A stretch of 64,000 bases of DNA from Gekko japonicus. Its lineage: Eukaryota. A program made the position numbers. Shown one piece after another: positions 27,201 to 33,200 of this stretch. Where the stretch lies: the NCBI RefSeq assembly GCF_001447785.1, contig NW_015170905.1, positions 866,436-930,435 of the forward strand, in the 5' to 3' direction. Numbering within the stretch: the first letter of the stretch is position 1; each line of letters starts with the position of its first letter.

Positions 27201-30200
27201 ACTATCATCCTCTACTTAGTCTTCTACTCCCATTGTCCAATGTTATTGCAGAATTGATGATAATCCAATTTTTAAGATTAAGTTCATTTTTCTATTGTTG
27301 TTTCCCTTTAAACATTAATATTTGTGGTCATCATATCCTCTGGGGAATCTAATCACAGTCTCACCGGGCAGACCAATACTTGGATATGTCCATAGATCAT
27401 ATCCTCGCTATATAAACCACTTTTAATCTTAGACTGGTCCCAAAACTTCCTTTAAAACTTGCCTTAGATTCTCCTCTTCGCTTCCTCAAAGTCTGCATAG
27501 TCTCCACATCGCTTATTATTCCCATTTGCAATTTAAAGGTAATTCTCGAATAATGTCTCTATCCTACTGCAAAGCCTTACAATTGACTCCAATGCAATGA
27601 AATTTAGTTTACAGTCTAGGATATGGTGCCAAACATTTATACTTTAGAAGAGTCTGATTGTTTCTGGTCATATGACCTAAATGACAAAGCACACAGTTCC
27701 TAAAGAAGGCTAAGACTCCATTCCGCTTTCAATCACCATTTTGGGTTTTTTTTAATTTTTAAAATTTTTGCTCGAGTCCTGAATGTTTGCTTGATTGCTT
27801 GGACGCCTCTTGAAAACTTTTTACAATAATCCAAAGTCACTTTTTTCACACACACACACCCCAATCCTGTTTCAGTACTCTGATGCATGTGCACAGGGGA
27901 GAGTTTCCTCCCACCCTCACTTTCTCGGGGCTTCAGGCGCTTTTCTGCTGTCTTCGCTTTAACCAAACTCATGATTCAACGTCGATCTCGGCATCGCCGC
28001 AGGAATCTTGCCATAAAATACAGGTAACGCTAAACCTCCAAACACTTGTCCCAGTGGGTCCCAGTGTGTGACCCTGAGTCCAATGCTGGAAACTCAGTGG
28101 CGGGACTGTTGGGGCAGGGAGTAGCCCCCCTTCGCCAGCTGGTTGCCAGAGGAAGGGCTCTCCAAACGCCCCATTGCTAGGAGCCCAAAGCAAGGGCTCC
28201 AGGGAGGATGCGGAAGGTCACACCCCCTCCCATCTGTTAGTTCATGGCACACGTCTCTCGGAGCTCTGAGAAGCCACGGCCATTGTTAGAGTGCCGAAGT
28301 CTGGTTGAATATTTATTTTAAAGAACTCTTGAATATCTATTTTAGTTTTTTTAACAAATTGTTGGTCACACAGTAAATTTTTATTCATGAACCATATTTA
28401 CCATTAACATCCTTTTACTCTGTCTTGTGATGGTAACTGCAACAATTCTTCCATCATTTGATGTATAAGTTAGTTCTGGAGATAAGCATTCTTTGACATA
28501 TATAGCTACACCCTTTTTCTTTTTTAAATCAGCAGCAAAAAATTCCCTTTTTTGCTATTAAATACTTTGTATCCTCTTTGTTAATGTGAGTTTCTTGTAT
28601 ACAAGTTATATCTGGTTTAAGTTTGTTTATTTATGTTCTATTTCTTTTGGGGGGGCTATTAAGTCCATTCACATTGACCGAGAGTATCTTGAGTTTATTC
28701 ATTGTCTCCATCTTTATTTACATTTTTTCTTGTCTTTTCTCTGTATTGGTATCTTGTGAGTATTTGTGAGGGGGTTAGGAGATATCCTGGCTTTCCTCCA
28801 AAGTGGGGTAGAGAAAGGTTTAAGTTCTAGTACCTTGAGGAGACAGGTGGCTGCTCTGTCGGCGGTGCGGGGAGCCAAAAAGGGGGTTTCCTTGGGGCAA
28901 CACCCACATATCAGGCGGTTCCTTAAAGGGACGGCTTCCCTTACTCCCCCGCAGGTGCACAGGTTTCCTACCTGGAGCTTGAACACAGTGTTAGATGCAC
29001 TATGCAAGGCCCCTTTTGAGCCTATGGCAGTATGTCCGTTGAAGGAACTCACCTTCAAGACAGTTTTCCTAGTAGGGGTTACCTCGGCCCGCAGGGTTTC
29101 TGAATTAAGGGCACTGTCGGTGCATAAAGAGCTGTGTATTTTTCATGCAGATAGAGTAGTCCTCAGACCGGATCCGGCATTCATCCCAAAAGTAAATTCA
29201 GTGTTCCATAGGGCTGAGGAGATAGTTCTTCCTGCCTTTTGTCAGAAACCTGTACACGAAAAGGAGAGACGCTGGCATCGGCTAGATGTCCGTAGAGCGT
29301 TAAGTTTCTATTTGGATAGGACCAAGGCTTTTAGGAAGTCGGAGTGCCTGTTTGTGTCCTTTAGGAAAAAGAGTCTGGGAAATCCCATTTCGGTGTCCAC
29401 CATTAGTAGGTGGGTGCGGGGCTGCATTACTGAGGCATATAAGGCTCAAGGGTTGGTGCCACCTGAAGGGGTTACTGCTCACTCAGTGAGGGGGGCGGCT
29501 ACGTCAGCAGCTTATCGAGCCTTTCCGTCCTTGGATGTGATTTGCAAAGCAGCTACCTGGAGGTCGGTTCATTCTTTTACAAGGCACTACAGGGTTGACA
29601 GGTGGGCCTCGGCTGAGGCAGCCTTTGGTAGGAGAGTACTGCAGCAGGCCTTGTAAACACCGGAAATCGTTGGACCCACCCTGGGGAGGTACTGCTATTT
29701 TATGTCCCAGGAGTAAGGAGTCAAAGGACTGCCCCACTCCAAGGACCACCGGAGAACGGAAGATTTTATTCACTTACCGTGAAGCTTCCTTCTCGGTGGT
29801 CCTGGAGTGGGGCAGTCCTCCCCACCCGTTTGGAGGAACGAGTTCCGGTGGTTATCAAGGCCTGGTGATTAGCCGGGGATGTGAAGTGTGCCTGTATTGT
29901 TTTGTCTCTTCCTGGGTCTAGAACCCAGACTGGTCCTGTGGAACTGTTTATTTTTTCCTGTGTTGTTGGTTGAATAAAGTTCTTCTTGATTCATTAATAC
30001 CCGTGGTTGTTCCCCTTTATGGTTGGGGGGCAGAAGGGGTTCTTTTTTTGTATTCCTTATATGATATAGGTGTGGAATCGATTAGGGGAGGAGCTTGGCT
30101 TTGATTTCGACTGGTTGTCTACAGGACTAGCCCCTCCCCTCCAGGATCGAAAGTCAGCCGGCCCTGCGTTGGATGGGGGAGGGGCAAGTCCCAGGAGTAA

Positions 30201-33200
30201 GGAGTCAAAGGACTGCCCCACTCCACACACACCCCAATCCTGTTTCAGTACTCTGATGCATGTGCACAGGGGAGAGTTTCCTCCCACCCTCACTTTCTCG
30301 GGGCTTCAGGCGCTTTTCTGCTGTCTTCGCTTTAACCAAACTCATGATTCAACGTCGATCTCGGCATCGCCGCAGGAATCTTGCCATAAAATACAGGTAA
30401 CGCTAAACCTCCAAACACTTGTCCCAGTGTGCGACCCTGAGTCCAATGCTGGAAACTCAGTGGCGGGACTGTTGGGGCAGGGAGTAGCCCCCCTTCGCCA
30501 GCTGGTTGCCAGAGGAAGGGCTCTCCAAACGCCCCATTGCTAGGAGCCCAAAGCAAGGGCTCCAGGGAGGATGCGGAAGGTCACACCCCCTCCCATCTGT
30601 TAGTTCATGGCACACGTCTCTCGGAGCTCTGAGAAGCCACGGCCATTGTTAGAGTGCCGAAGTCTGGTTGAATATTTATTTTAAAGAACTCTTGAATATC
30701 TATTTTAGTTTTTTTAACAAATTGTTGGTCACACAGTAAATTTTTATTCATGAACCATATTTACCATTAACATCCTTTTACTCTGTCTTGCGATGGTAAC
30801 TGCAACAATTCTTCCATCATTTGATGTATAAGTTAGTTCTGGAGATAAGCATTCTTTGACATATATAGCTACACCCTTTTTCTTTTTTAAATCAGCAGCA
30901 AAAAATTCCCTTTTTTGCTATTAAATACTTTGTATCCTCTTTGTTAATGTGAGTTTCTTGTATACAAGTTATATCTGGTTTAAGTTTGTTTATTTATGTT
31001 CTATTTCTTTTGGGGGGGCTATTAAGTCCATTCACATTGACCGAGAGTATCTTGAGTTTATTCATTGTCTCCATCTTTATTTACATTTTTTCTTGTCTTT
31101 TCTCTGTATTGGTATCTTGTGAGTATTTGTGAGGGGGTGAAGTTTGTTCTTTTTTTCCCCTTTAGTCCGTCCTTTCTTTTTAGCTTCTTCTGCTTTGGGG
31201 TCATTTGTTTCTTCCTCATTTTCACTCTCCTCCTCTTCTTCTCCTTGCCATCCTACGTTTTCTCCAAACCTTTCCAGAAATTCTTTCCTTTAAATATTGA
31301 ATCAATTTTATGCCTTCGACCTTGGTAGTTGAATAATATTACTTCTGGAAATAACCATCTATATGAAATTCCATTTGACTGTAACAGATTGGTTAATACA
31401 GAGTAACTTTGCCTTTTTTCCCTAACCCTCCATGGCACATCCTTTAAAATTTTAATCTCTTTATCTTGTATAATCACTTTAGTGTTATTTGAGGCTTTCA
31501 GTATTTTATCTTTCATGTATCTTCTGTTAAATTTAATGTGGACCTCCCTAGGTATTTTATTCCTCCTTGCATAAGAGGTATTTTTTCCTATAGATAGCTT
31601 TTATTTTACGTTCCAGCTCTTCATAGTTTTCTATATTCAGTTATTGTGATAAGTTCTGTATTAAGTCCTCTTTCAGACTTTTCTCTAGAGTTTCAGGGAT
31701 GTTTTGGCACCTTAAGACCAAGGAAGCTTTGTCCATTTCCAAAGTCATCAATGTCTCTTCCATTCTTTCCACTTTTTGTTTTACTTCTTGTACCTCTTGA
31801 TCTACATCTTGTAGTTTGTCTTCTATATTATTACATGCTAAAGCAATTTTTAATATCTCTTGCTTATTTTCGGTTATTTGTTTTTTATATCTTCTCTTTC
31901 TGTTGTAATCTATTGTGCTATGTTTTCTGTTTTTGTTTGTATAGGTTCTAATTCCTTTTTAACCATTTCTCCCATTTTTGTTTGTATTGGTTCAATTTCT
32001 TTCCTAATTAGTTCTGGCAGTGTTGTATTTACTGTATTTTTAATAGTTTGTGCCATACATTCTTGTATGAGCATTTTAAAGTCTTTTATTGACATCTGTG
32101 CCATATTTGTAGTGTTAAATTTGAGTTGTGTTTGGGCTCTTGTTTGTCCCGGTGAGGTTAGGGATGATTTTCTGGAACTACTAGCCATTGTTATTATTTA
32201 GTACTATGATTCTATAGTGCTTTTCTAGTATAGTGTCCTCTCCTTTCTTTATATTCTTATCACAAAGTTTGTTCTTATGTTAAAAAGCAGTATTAGTTAA
32301 AGTAATGCCTAGTTGCTTTGTCTTGTTTTTTGTTTAAATTTCACAGTCTGGCTGTCTTTATTTCATATGTCTCTTCTCCTGTCTTTCCTCTTTCTCTTTC
32401 TGCTGCACTTCCATTCTCTTTAATGTGTCGCGTCCCCTTCTCTCTCCTCCTGTGTTGTATTACACCCTCTTCCTCACTCGTCTCAAGTTTCACGGTGTCA
32501 TGGTTTCATTTTTCCTTCCCCTCGTCTTTTCTCCTAAGTTTTCTGTGGAACATTACCTAAAAGGTAAGCAACCAAATGAGAAAGAAGGCTGTAATATATC
32601 TAATCTCTGAATGTTTTAAATGCTTTTACCTCTTATTATTACCCTCTTTATTTTTAAATTTGCCTAGTCATCCTGCTAATGGCCGCTTTAAAGCCTTCCC
32701 TTCCCTTCCTTCTTTTCCCTTTATACTGGCTTGGGGTAATATTAGTTTACTCAATGGTCCTGTAATATATATTGTCTCTTCGACAAATGAATAAGCTTTA
32801 AAGAAACTTAGCTTCGTTGGAGCTTTTGTTTTCTGTATTTTAAAGACTCTATTGGTCCTGTAGAGTTCATCTTGTGTAGTCAAGCGTCCCTCCTCCACCT
32901 TCCGCATAGAAACAGTCCCAAATTCACCAAGAAGGTTGCCATTCTATCTTGGGTTTTGGAGCAAGCTTCTTGCTTTCGGTTTTCCCCTCCAAGGGAGTAC
33001 CTCTGAGGGTGTAAGAATTTTCCTAGAAGGCTGTGGGAAAATTCAGCAGATGAGCAGCTGCCGCTACAAGCATCTGCTCTCGGTGAGCCCCCAAGACTCA
33101 GGCTTTCTGATACCAAATCTCTCTATCTCAAATGTAATTAATGAACTGGAGCCGGCATTCATACACAAACAATTTGAGGAACCTAACAGAAAAGCTGAAC

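What the first reader, a model, noticed from the sequence alone, without database searches (positions are those of the whole stretch)
27851..31138. Uninterrupted DIRS tyrosine recombinase captured between ~920-bp direct duplications of host-locus DNA
Seen: structure A-[DIRS fragment]-A'. A (925 bp) and A' (915 bp) differ only by a 10-bp indel and two CpG transitions. The 1.45-kb insert starts inside the YR gene and stops just before the DIRS terminus, with short microhomology (ca at the right junction, possibly ggggt at the left). The YR frame has no stops and keeps R-K-HxxR-W-Y, while the nearby DIRS at 16.7-20.4 kb is heavily decayed. Established: DIRS elements integrate through circular intermediates without long TSDs. 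Inference: this is not normal DIRS transposition. It could be a template-switch (MMBIR/FoSTeS) duplication with a templated insertion from a young DIRS copy, or homologous integration of an A+DIRS extrachromosomal circle. Either way it implies a recently active DIRS family in this genome.
Basis: partly seen in the sequence, partly recalled or inferred. Interest (0 to 1): 0.75.

Follow-up and report, generated by a model that had tools for sequence, protein, structure and literature searches.

The report
DIRS fragment bridging a tandem duplication
A 1.45-kb end piece of a young DIRS retrotransposon, cut short at both ends, sits between two near-identical 0.92-kb copies of older transposon DNA, which looks like a scar of host DNA-break repair and not a normal DIRS jump or a captured working gene.

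Summary
A (27851-28775) and A' (30224-31138) differ by two C/T sites at CpG and one 10-bp indel. They flank a 1448-bp DIRS1-like fragment.

The fragment carries a stop-free 296-codon tyrosine-recombinase frame. That frame has a Cre-like predicted fold and keeps R-K-HxxR-W-Y. After it come the internal complementary region (ICR) hairpin and only 17 of about 62 nt of the predicted right terminus.

Both ends are truncated, and the right junction shares 2 nt (CA) with a (CA)n run. So the recombinase did not insert it.

A is not unique host DNA. Half of it is the start of a decayed L1-like LINE nested in a copia-like element, and the other half is unidentified.

Best reading (0.4): break repair that duplicated A and copied or captured a linear DIRS cDNA intermediate. 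Main rival (0.3): template switching onto a genomic DIRS copy. An assembly artefact is not excluded (0.1).

Given about 0.2% divergence between the copies, the intact frame reflects youth and is not evidence of selection. The recombinase also lacks its N-terminus and a start codon.

No eukaryotic genome collection was available, so the donor and the copy number of the junctions stayed unchecked. Interest is moderate.

The parts
27851..28775 (.). A, left copy of the duplicated segment (925 bp)
   Evidence: 98.7% identical to A' over 925 columns, with 2 mismatches and one 10-bp gap.
30224..31138 (.). A', right copy of the duplicated segment (915 bp). It runs on into the same LINE at 31139 and beyond.
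28776..30223 (+). Insert D: the 3' part of a DIRS1-like retrotransposon, truncated at both ends
   Evidence: Relatives map to 28775/28784-29653 on the + strand. An ICR hairpin and a partial right terminus follow. CpG o/e is 0.45.
28766..29656 (+). Stop-free tyrosine-recombinase frame of 296 codons. The first 10 nt come from A, the N-terminal part of the gene is absent, and the stop codon is at 29654-29656.
   Evidence: 185 relatives at E<=1e-3, best 67% identity, named ones from squamates, turtles and amphibians. Catalytic columns are kept. AlphaFold2 pLDDT 89.9; the top Foldseek match is Cre at E 1e-7, TM 0.60-0.66. Pfam does not score the ORF itself, but 7 of 11 members of alignment A1 match PF00589.
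29725..29819 (+). Internal complementary region (ICR) hairpin. The left half is about 29725-29757 and the right half about 29758-29819.
   Evidence: DNA fold -41.4 kcal/mol, z -9.0, 0 of 200 shuffles as stable. It is 88.7% identical to the old copy's hairpin at 19896-20001. The halves were delimited with alignment A2. Their sizes resemble AcDIRS1/2 of Anolis, 40-58 and 39-60 nt (PMC3266345 Table 3).
29704..29741 (+). Internal copy of a 38-nt direct repeat; its last 17 nt form the left arm of the hairpin
30188..30225 (+). Terminal copy of the 38-nt repeat. Its last 17 nt (30209-30225) are all that remains of the predicted roughly 62-nt right terminus, and its last 2 nt (CA) overlap the start of A'.
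27847..27859 (.). (CA)n run that holds the left boundary of A. This is the site of the 2-nt junction microhomology.
27851..28310 (.). G, the GC-rich half of A (its copy G' is at 30224-30673); identity unknown
   Evidence: GC 0.55 and CpG o/e 0.48, against 0.22 for the window. No Pfam, Rfam or tRNA signal. No similarity to either DIRS copy. No protein relatives for the ORF spanning the D/G' junction.
28311..28775 (-). E, the AT-rich half of A (its copy E' is at 30674-31138): inter-ORF spacer, ORF2 start and N-terminal endonuclease part of a decayed L1-like LINE. It is broken by stops and at least one frame change.
   Evidence: Three-frame reading. The open piece 28384-28554(-) finds 27 proteins at E<=1e-3, and 11 of the 17 scanned carry Exo_endo_phos.
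31256..32197 (-). ORF1-like part of the same LINE, directly continuing A'
   Evidence: Weak Transposase_22 match, E 0.004, below the cut-off. Reading of translations; the family name is recalled.
22669..26790 (-). ORF2 linker and reverse-transcriptase part of an L1-like LINE in the same orientation, probably the same element; broken
   Evidence: RVT_1 matches at 25849-26067 and 22669-22998. Translation. Two RT-domain relatives.
17050..20432 (+). Older, decayed DIRS1-like copy, used here as a guide to the family's right terminus
   Evidence: Relatives map to 17050-17654 and 18480-19881. The recombinase region shows 2 frames and 9 stops. 20373-20423 is the reverse complement of 19930-19980 at 96%.

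Best explanation
A chromosome break or stalled fork inside an old, dead L1-like LINE was repaired by the host, not by the DIRS recombinase.

In this model the 3' end at the right edge of A annealed by a few bases to an extrachromosomal, linear, antisense DIRS cDNA, a replication intermediate of a then-active family. It copied that cDNA to its natural 5' end. That end lies about 45 nt short of the element's terminus, because the outermost bases are only added later from the internal complementary region.

The run-off end (...CA) then re-annealed in a (CA)n run 0.92 kb upstream, on the sister chromatid or the other broken end. A was therefore copied a second time before repair finished. The product is L-A-[5'- and 3'-truncated DIRS piece]-A'-R.

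- **Shown:** the anatomy, both truncations, the 2-nt junction overlap, the youth of the event, and the transposon nature of A.
- **Inferred:** the break, the cDNA as donor, and the order of steps.

The recombinase frame is a passenger. It lacks its N-terminus and a start codon and is intact only because the event is recent.
For: 1. **Both ends are non-canonical.** Homology to relatives starts inside the recombinase gene. Only 17 of about 62 nt of the terminus complementary to the right ICR half are present.
2. **The 3' breakpoint position is telling.** It falls in the last roughly 1% of an element of about 6 kb (AcDIRS1/2 are 5938 and 5997 bp; PMC3266345). This is unexpected for a random template switch on a genomic copy. 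It is expected if the donor was a molecule that naturally ends there.
3. **Such molecules are known in DIRS-1.** Its transcripts lack the LTR extremities, the ICR is needed to restore them, and abundant linear single-stranded antisense cDNA exists (Malicki 2020, PMC7192593; introduction, one results section and the discussion read).
4. **Capture of retroelement cDNA at breaks has precedent.** Doubly truncated retroelement or cDNA pieces with 1-5 nt microhomology are captured at breaks in mouse zygotes, with two natural MuERV-L cases (Ono 2015, PMC4516963; abstract and two sections read). It also occurs in yeast (PMC11372161, abstract only).
5. **Small tandem duplications at insertion sites are reported.** They were seen at retrotransposition-associated insertion sites in L1 experiments (PMC11702581, passages).
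6. **The junction and the age fit.** The right junction overlaps by 2 nt (CA) in a (CA)n run. The event is young: K = 2/915, both differences at CpG, and the insert's CpG o/e is 0.45.
Against: - No donor was seen, and no eukaryotic genome collection was at hand.
- Where this family's RNA or cDNA ends is unknown. In DIRS-1 the transcript is said to lack almost the whole right LTR, not just its tip, so the analogy is loose.
- The terminus itself is predicted from a 68%-identical old copy and from ICR complementarity, not observed in a full-length relative.
- Two nt of microhomology is weak evidence.
- Capture events in the cited work did not come with 0.9-kb duplications (Ono 2015 mentions only a 10-bp one).
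- The RNA fold of the last 186 nt is not special (z -1.98, 4 of 200 shuffles as stable).
- A single locus cannot separate a cDNA donor from a genomic donor.
Confidence: 0.4

Rival explanations
1. Replicative template switching (FoSTeS/MMBIR) onto a genomic DIRS copy. A nascent strand left the template at the end of A, copied 1.45 kb from a young chromosomal DIRS elsewhere, then switched back to the start of A by microhomology and replicated A again.
For: The structure A-insert-A' with a 2-nt overlap at the right junction is what this model gives. Templated insertions at duplication junctions are a known MMBIR signature (PMC2621351 and PMC8421209, search listing and abstract starts only).
Against: The 3' breakpoint within the last roughly 62 nt of an element of about 6 kb would be a coincidence of about 1%. 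The only other DIRS in the window is 68% identical and so is not the donor. Microhomology at the left junction is untestable.
Confidence: 0.3
2. Assembly artefact. The two A copies are alleles or collapsed paralogues, and the insert was joined in by chimeric or mis-overlapped reads.
For: Two SNPs plus one indel in 915 bp is also what allelic variation would look like. The region is a dense nest of repeats. No read data were available.
Against: Both junctions (end of A to inside DIRS, and near-end of DIRS to start of A) are novel and must both exist in reads. A simple heterozygous insertion cannot yield them. No N run lies near; the only one is at 60419-60767.
Confidence: 0.1
3. Target-primed reverse transcription of DIRS RNA at a nick, by a LINE or other reverse transcriptase acting in trans, with the second-strand nick 0.92 kb away. 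This would give an outsized target-site duplication.
For: The geometry fits: a sense-oriented, 5'-truncated copy with its 3' end next to the downstream duplicate. L1 experiments report small tandem duplications at insertion sites (PMC11702581).
Against: There is no poly(A) at the 3' junction. No T-rich endonuclease-type nick motif lies on the priming strand at 27850/27851 (the motif is as quoted in PMC11702581). The duplication is about 50 times the usual 12-18 bp.
Confidence: 0.08
4. Homologous integration of an extrachromosomal circle made of A plus the DIRS fragment.
For: It gives the same end product. DIRS elements are thought to pass through circular forms.
Against: It needs the same two illegitimate junctions to form first in a circle, and then a homologous crossover as well. 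That is more steps for the same result. In DIRS-1 the intermediates were mostly linear.
Confidence: 0.07
5. Several separate events: a plain tandem duplication of A, then a canonical DIRS integration at the A/A' joint, then deletions of the 5' 4.5 kb and of the terminal 45 nt.
For: Each step is known on its own.
Against: It needs two deletions that end exactly at the last base of A and the first base of A'. With only 0.22% divergence there is little time for four events.
Confidence: 0.03

Closest known systems
DIRS1-like retrotransposons of vertebrates (for example AcDIRS1/AcDIRS2 of Anolis carolinensis; Piednoel et al. 2011, PMC3266345)
   Same: A Cre-like tyrosine recombinase as the last gene, followed by two abutting internal complementary regions that form a hairpin, and a right terminus complementary to the right ICR. 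The ICR halves here are about 33 and 62 nt, against 40-58 and 39-60 nt in AcDIRS1/2.
   Different: Only the last roughly quarter of an element is present. There is no gag, RT, RNase H, methyltransferase or left terminus, and the right terminus lacks about 45 nt. The protein is at most 67% identical to anything in the protein database.
Canonical DIRS integration (recombination of a closed circle at a 3-bp junction motif, no target-site duplication)
   Same: The inserted DNA comes from a DIRS element.
   Different: The termini that carry the junction motif are absent, and a 915-925-bp direct duplication flanks the insert.
RT-product-mediated break repair, or filler-DNA capture (Ono et al. 2015, PMC4516963; yeast Ty1 cDNA capture, PMC11372161)
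   Same: A retroelement piece truncated at both ends, joined with 1-5 nt microhomology, with no role for the element's own integrase.
   Different: Here the target is duplicated over 0.92 kb and the payload is a DIRS element. I found no such case in print.
FoSTeS/MMBIR duplications with templated insertions (Hastings et al. 2009, PMC2621351)
   Same: A tandem duplication whose joint carries sequence templated from elsewhere, with microhomology at the joint.
   Different: The inserted piece ends almost at the natural end of a mobile element, which points to an end-bearing donor molecule rather than a chromosomal template.
L1 insertions with 5' truncation, and L1-associated small tandem duplications (PMC11702581)
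   Same: A sense copy that is 5'-truncated, with its 3' end abutting the downstream duplicate, and with duplication of the target.
   Different: No poly(A), no endonuclease-type site, and a duplication of about 0.92 kb instead of 12-18 bp.

Membership tests
DIRS1-like retrotransposon (fragment of) | Tyrosine recombinase with catalytic R, K, HxxR, W/H and Y, and a Cre-like fold | tested here: met
   R110, K142 and R242 lie in columns at least 90% conserved; H239, W265 and Y275 lie in invariant columns of 64 sequences. pLDDT is 89.9, and Cre is the top structural match at E 1e-7. The profile of A1 hits Cre/Tre at E 1.6e-5 to 4e-4. Pfam does not score the window ORF itself, but 7 of 11 A1 members match PF00589.
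DIRS1-like retrotransposon (fragment of) | Paired internal complementary regions downstream of the recombinase gene | tested here: met
   Hairpin at 29725-29819, z -9.0, conserved in the old copy at 88.7%.
DIRS1-like retrotransposon (fragment of) | Right terminus fully complementary to the right ICR, including a right extension | tested here: not met
   Only 17 of about 62 nt are present (30209-30225). The old copy shows 51 nt at 96%.
DIRS1-like retrotransposon (fragment of) | Left inverted terminal repeat, gag, and RT/RNase H/methyltransferase | tested here: not met
   No inverted repeats of at least 30 nt in 26500-32500. No Pfam hit in any open stretch between 27736 and 31252. Relatives map only to 28679-29686 at this locus.
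Canonical recombinase-mediated DIRS integration | Complete termini and no target-site duplication | tested here: not met
   Both ends are truncated and a 915-925-bp duplication is present. The rule is as stated in PMC3266345.
LINE-type target-primed insertion in trans | Poly(A) at the 3' junction, an endonuclease-type nick site, and a short duplication | tested here: not met
   None of the three is present at 30223/30224 or 27850/27851. The features are as described in PMC11702581.
RT-product / filler-DNA capture at a break | Insert truncated at both ends; 1-5 nt microhomology at the junctions | tested here: inconclusive
   Truncations are met. The right junction has 2 nt. The left junction is not testable without the donor, and there is no direct sign of reverse transcription.
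FoSTeS/MMBIR | A genomic template for the inserted piece, and microhomology at each switch | not testable with these tools
   No eukaryotic genome collection was available. The only other DIRS in the window is 68% identical.
Domesticated (host-captured) recombinase gene | A complete coding sequence with a start codon, and conservation beyond neutral expectation | tested here: not met
   About 35-60 N-terminal residues are missing. The frame opens only 5 codons before the junction, and the first ATG is near codon 87. About 1.6 substitutions are expected in 1448 nt since the event, so intactness is the neutral expectation.

The most novel reading that the evidence does not exclude
The insert is a fossil of the linear single-stranded cDNA intermediate of a vertebrate DIRS element. 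On this reading its right end (30223-30225) marks the 5' end of the minus-strand cDNA. That is the point where reverse transcription starts, and the point from which the ICR must restore the last roughly 45 nt. The cDNA intermediate has been studied experimentally only in Dictyostelium, and its primer is still unknown there (PMC7192593). If other truncated copies in this genome end at the same nucleotide, the priming site of DIRS reverse transcription could be read directly from genome sequence.
Probability: 0.25. Interest if true: 0.6.

Novelty: new member of a known kind. Interest (0 to 1): 0.38.

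Why it matters
If real, the locus shows that DIRS sequence can enter a vertebrate genome without the recombinase, as filler in host break repair, and can duplicate nearly a kilobase of target as it does so. 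This warns against counting every DIRS fragment as a decayed canonical insertion. It also dates an active DIRS family in this squamate-like genome to roughly the last 0.5-2 million years (substitution rates assumed from memory). Finally, it offers a descriptive way to ask where DIRS cDNA begins, through the positions where truncated copies end. It does not point to a new gene or a new kind of mobile element.

Tried and rejected
- **Pfam and PDB sequence searches with the ORF alone found nothing usable.** Pfam gave only DUF7047 at E 0.11 and PDB gave 0 hits. Family membership had to come from relatives, a profile and a predicted fold.
- One search failed because one reference translated with stops. 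I then sent stop-free stretches only.
- **G as part of the DIRS element (left terminus or 5' region): rejected.** There is no direct or inverted similarity to the insert or to the old copy (best E 0.33-1.7) and no inverted repeats.
- **G as a SINE, tRNA-derived element or known RNA: nothing found.** Rfam gave only three sub-threshold miRNA-like matches, all on the ICR hairpin (29.4, 26.7 and 22.8 bits against gathering scores of 79-100). ARAGORN found 0 tRNAs.
- **G or the D/G' junction ORF as coding: nothing found.** 75 candidates, none at E<=0.01.
- **A full-length LINE protein to map the LINE:** the search found only two partial RT proteins. The endonuclease identity of E was then shown through. 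Of 17 hits scanned, 11 carry Exo_endo_phos, 4 have no family, and 2 look like spurious repeat proteins.
- **A self-priming hairpin at the insert's 3' end:** not significant.
- **The bacterial promoter/terminator scan** is irrelevant to a vertebrate locus and was not used.
- **The old DIRS copy as donor: rejected** (68% identity).
- **Literature:** no paper linking DIRS to filler DNA or templated insertion was found. In one search, 4 papers held all terms, 3 were listed, and none was on this topic by title. In one search, none of the 10 listed of 97 contains 'DIRS'.

Full report
**1. The observation**

The window holds a direct repeat of about 0.92 kb. Segment 27851-28775 (A, 925 bp) aligns with 30224-31138 (A', 915 bp) at 98.7% over 925 columns, with 2 mismatches and one gap. 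It includes exact blocks of 206 and 300 nt.

The differences are:
- a 10-bp unit present about twice in A (28048-28066) and once in A';
- two sites that read T in A and C of a CpG in A', both in the same pentamer context.

In a self-comparison of the whole window, this is the longest of the 19 repeat pairs of at least 80 columns that were listed (23 found) and the only one above 95% identity. The 1448 bp between the copies (28776-30223) are unrelated to A. The window has one N run (60419-60767), which I left alone. Nothing in the window or the hits looked human.

**2. The insert is the 3' part of a DIRS1-like element**

*Tyrosine-recombinase frame.* The frame at 28766-29656 (+) is open for 296 codons and is the longest ORF of the window. 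None of 20000 shuffles lacked a stop, and the chance from base composition is 5e-7.
- Pfam and PDB sequence searches with the ORF alone gave nothing usable.
- The protein database gave 185 relatives at E<=1e-3 among 2074 candidates. The best is 67% identical. The named ones come from snakes, lizards, an amphisbaenian, turtles and amphibians, and some carry PF00589, PF02899 or PF13495.
- Of the 11 sequences in alignment A1, 7 match PF00589; the window ORF itself does not.
- A profile of A1 finds Cre and Tre recombinases at E 1.6e-5 to 4e-4.
- An AlphaFold2 model built on 64 sequences has mean pLDDT 89.9 and pTM 0.83. Its best PDB matches are Cre-DNA complexes, at E 1e-7 and TM 0.60-0.66, with 64 matches at E<=0.001.
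- In the 64-sequence alignment the window ORF keeps H239, W265 and Y275 (invariant columns) and R110, K142 and R242 (columns at least 90% conserved).

*Left truncation.* Relatives' alignments start mostly at 28784 (36 HSPs), 28781 (21) and 28775 (15). Relatives of 330-360 aa have about 35-60 more residues at the N-terminus. The gene is therefore entered part-way. Only 5 codons of the open frame come from A, and the first ATG is near codon 87.

*The 3' non-coding part.* Downstream of the stop codon lie 567 nt of non-coding DNA containing:
- a 95-nt hairpin at 29725-29819 (-41.4 kcal/mol, z -9.0, 0 of 200 shuffles as stable);
- a 38-nt direct repeat at 29704-29741 and 30188-30225.

*The old copy as a guide to the terminus.* An older DIRS copy in the window (about 17050-20432, + strand) has the same hairpin at 19896-20001 (88.7% identity). 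At its right end, 20373-20423 is the reverse complement of 19930-19980 at 96%. This is the DIRS1-like rule that the right terminus is complementary to the right internal complementary region (ICR) (Piednoel 2011, PMC3266345, passages and Table 3 seen; Malicki 2020, PMC7192593, introduction read).

Alignment A2 carries that boundary over to the young copy:
- the right ICR is about 29758-29819 (62 nt);
- the left ICR is about 29725-29757.

These sizes are close to the 40-58 and 39-60 nt given for the two Anolis elements.

*Right truncation.* Of the predicted 62-nt terminus, only the first 17 nt are present (30209-30225). About 45 nt are missing, or up to 48 if a 3-bp junction motif is counted. 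No full-length relative was seen.

**3. What A is**

A is not unique host DNA.

*AT-rich half (E).* This half (about 28311-28775; its copy is at 30674-31138) is the inter-ORF spacer, the ORF2 start and the N-terminal endonuclease part of a decayed L1-like LINE on the minus strand.
- The open piece 28384-28554(-) finds 27 proteins at E<=1e-3 among 1.84 billion representatives.
- Of the 17 hits I scanned, 11 carry Exo_endo_phos, 4 have no family, and 2 look like spurious repeat proteins.

A' runs straight on into ORF1-like sequence at 31256-32197(-). The evidence there is a weak Transposase_22 match (E 0.004, below the cut-off) and reading of translations. The A'/R boundary therefore lies inside one LINE, which supports an ancestral order L-A-R.

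Further left, LINE ORF2 linker and RT sequence resumes at 26790 and runs to 22669 on the same strand.

*GC-rich half (G).* This half (27851-28310) is unidentified.
- Its CpG o/e is 0.48, like the insert (0.45) and unlike the LINE parts (0.10-0.20) or the window as a whole (0.22).
- It has no Pfam, Rfam or tRNA signal.
- It shows no similarity to either DIRS copy.
- The ORF across the D/G' junction has no protein relatives.

*Wider context.* The LINE appears to sit inside a copia-type element on the + strand, with gag at 20493-20894 and pol pieces at 33272-34663. That these belong to one element is my inference.

**4. The junctions**

*Right junction.* The DIRS repeat ends ...CA at 30225, and identity with A begins at 30224, inside a (CA)n run (27847-27859 in A). 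This gives 2 nt of overlap. The bases that the ICR predicts should follow in an intact terminus are not there.

*Left junction.* A and A' stay identical up to 28775/31138. Without the donor, microhomology here cannot be measured.

*What is absent.* There is no poly(A), and no T-rich nick motif on the strand that would have primed (the motif is as quoted in PMC11702581).

**5. Age and 'capture'**

K = 2/915 = 0.0022, and both differences are at CpG. With assumed rates of 0.5-2e-9 per site per year (recalled, rough), this gives about 0.5-2 million years.

About 1.6 substitutions are expected in the 1448-nt insert since the event. An intact frame is therefore the neutral expectation and says nothing about selection.

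What it does say is that the source copy had an intact recombinase gene and unerased CpGs when the event happened. By contrast, the old copy's recombinase region aligns in 2 frames with 9 stops at 42% identity, with CpG o/e 0.13-0.15. A recently active family is a fair inference; present activity is not shown.

**6. Mechanism**

The recombinase route is excluded. Both termini are missing, and DIRS1-like integration is described as leaving no target duplication.

The product L-A-D-A'-R needs two illegitimate joins: the end of A to the inside of the DIRS, and the near-end of the DIRS to the start of A.

*First choice (0.4): host break repair that used an extrachromosomal linear DIRS cDNA.* The top-strand 3' end at the edge of A anneals to the antisense cDNA inside the recombinase gene. 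It copies to the cDNA's 5' end, and the run-off ...CA end re-anneals in the (CA)n run 0.92 kb upstream on the sister or partner end, so that A is copied again.

The argument rests on the position of the 3' breakpoint. It falls in the last roughly 1% of an element of about 6 kb, in exactly the stretch that the DIRS model says is absent from intermediates and is restored from the ICR.
- In Dictyostelium DIRS-1, such linear single-stranded antisense cDNAs are abundant and the ICR is essential (PMC7192593).
- Capture of doubly truncated retroelement or cDNA pieces with 1-5 nt microhomology is documented in mouse, including two natural MuERV-L cases (PMC4516963), and in yeast (PMC11372161, abstract only).
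- Small tandem duplications at retrotransposition-linked insertion sites are reported for L1 (PMC11702581).

Against this reading:
- where this family's RNA or cDNA ends is unknown, and in DIRS-1 the transcript is said to lack nearly the whole right LTR;
- the terminus is predicted, not seen;
- 2 nt of overlap is weak;
- none of the cited capture events carried a 0.9-kb duplication.

*Rivals.*
- Template switching onto a genomic DIRS copy (0.3): same product, but it leaves the breakpoint position as a coincidence.
- Assembly artefact (0.1): the A/A' differences also look allelic. Both novel junctions must nevertheless exist in reads, and a simple heterozygous insertion cannot produce them.
- Target-primed reverse transcription with an outsized duplication (0.08): the geometry fits, but there is no poly(A) and no nick motif.
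- Homologous integration of an A+D circle (0.07): more steps for the same result.
- A multi-step history (0.03).

**7. Comparison with what is known, and novelty**

The insert is a fragment of a member of the DIRS1-like group. The recombinase and ICR tests are met. The termini and the other genes are absent. The event works like filler-DNA or RT-product capture, or a templated-insertion duplication.

I found no printed case of a DIRS piece in that role:
- 4 papers held all five terms, 3 were listed, and none was on this topic by title;
- none of the 10 listed of 97 contains 'DIRS'.

I file it as a new member of a known kind of repair scar. Interest is 0.38. It is a clean, young example with one suggestive feature (the breakpoint position), but it is a single locus and its mechanism cannot be settled here.

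**8. What stayed unchecked**

- No eukaryotic genome, read or contig collection was open. The donor copy, the copy number of G and of the two junctions, and other DIRS fragments with long flanking repeats could not be looked for.
- I opened no supplements. The additional files of PMC3266345 (Anolis families and termini) and the supplement of PMC7192593 (cDNA ends) may bear on the predicted terminus and on where cDNAs end.
- Motif names for L1 proteins and the substitution rates are recalled, not taken from a call.

Noticed in passing
window 20493-20894 and 33272-34663 (+): Copia-type LTR retrotransposon pieces: Retrotran_gag_2 on one side, and Pol_BBD, gag_pre-integrs, rve and SH3_retrovirus on the other. 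They lie either side of the LINE/DIRS nest, as if one element had been split by about 12 kb of later insertions.
   Followed up: partly
window 26791-28310: About 1.5 kb of unidentified, CpG-retaining DNA (L+G, CpG o/e about 0.45-0.48) sits where the C-terminal half of the LINE endonuclease should be. Its left edge (26771-26899) is an inverted 73% match to LINE sequence at 25720-25859.
   Followed up: partly
window 16323-16733 (-): A reverse-transcriptase (RVT_1, E 3.9e-17) open stretch on the minus strand, just left of the old DIRS copy. It belongs to yet another retroelement.
   Followed up: no
window 48147-48885; also 8907-9104, 40805-40890, 51848-52206: Long imperfect palindromes (self-inverted matches). 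The largest spans 748 columns at 80% identity.
   Followed up: no
window 14822-15150 vs 50012-49684; 13545-13748; 2773-3062 vs 36620-36911; 35587-35937 vs 36459-36110: Dispersed repeats of about 200-350 bp at 85-95% identity, in direct and inverted orientation. They are probably SINE-like or LTR pieces.
   Followed up: no
window 29716-29829 (-): The ICR hairpin draws three sub-threshold miRNA-precursor matches in Rfam (29.4, 26.7 and 22.8 bits against gathering scores of 79-100). I take these as hairpin look-alikes.
   Followed up: yes
window 28069/30432 and 28428/30791: Both substitutions between A and A' lie in the same five-base context, and in both the left copy carries the T. The 10-bp extra unit is also in the left copy, so all three differences are consistent with change in A only. 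The numbers are too small to test.
   Followed up: partly
window 60419-60767: A run of 349 N. It was left as it is.
   Followed up: no
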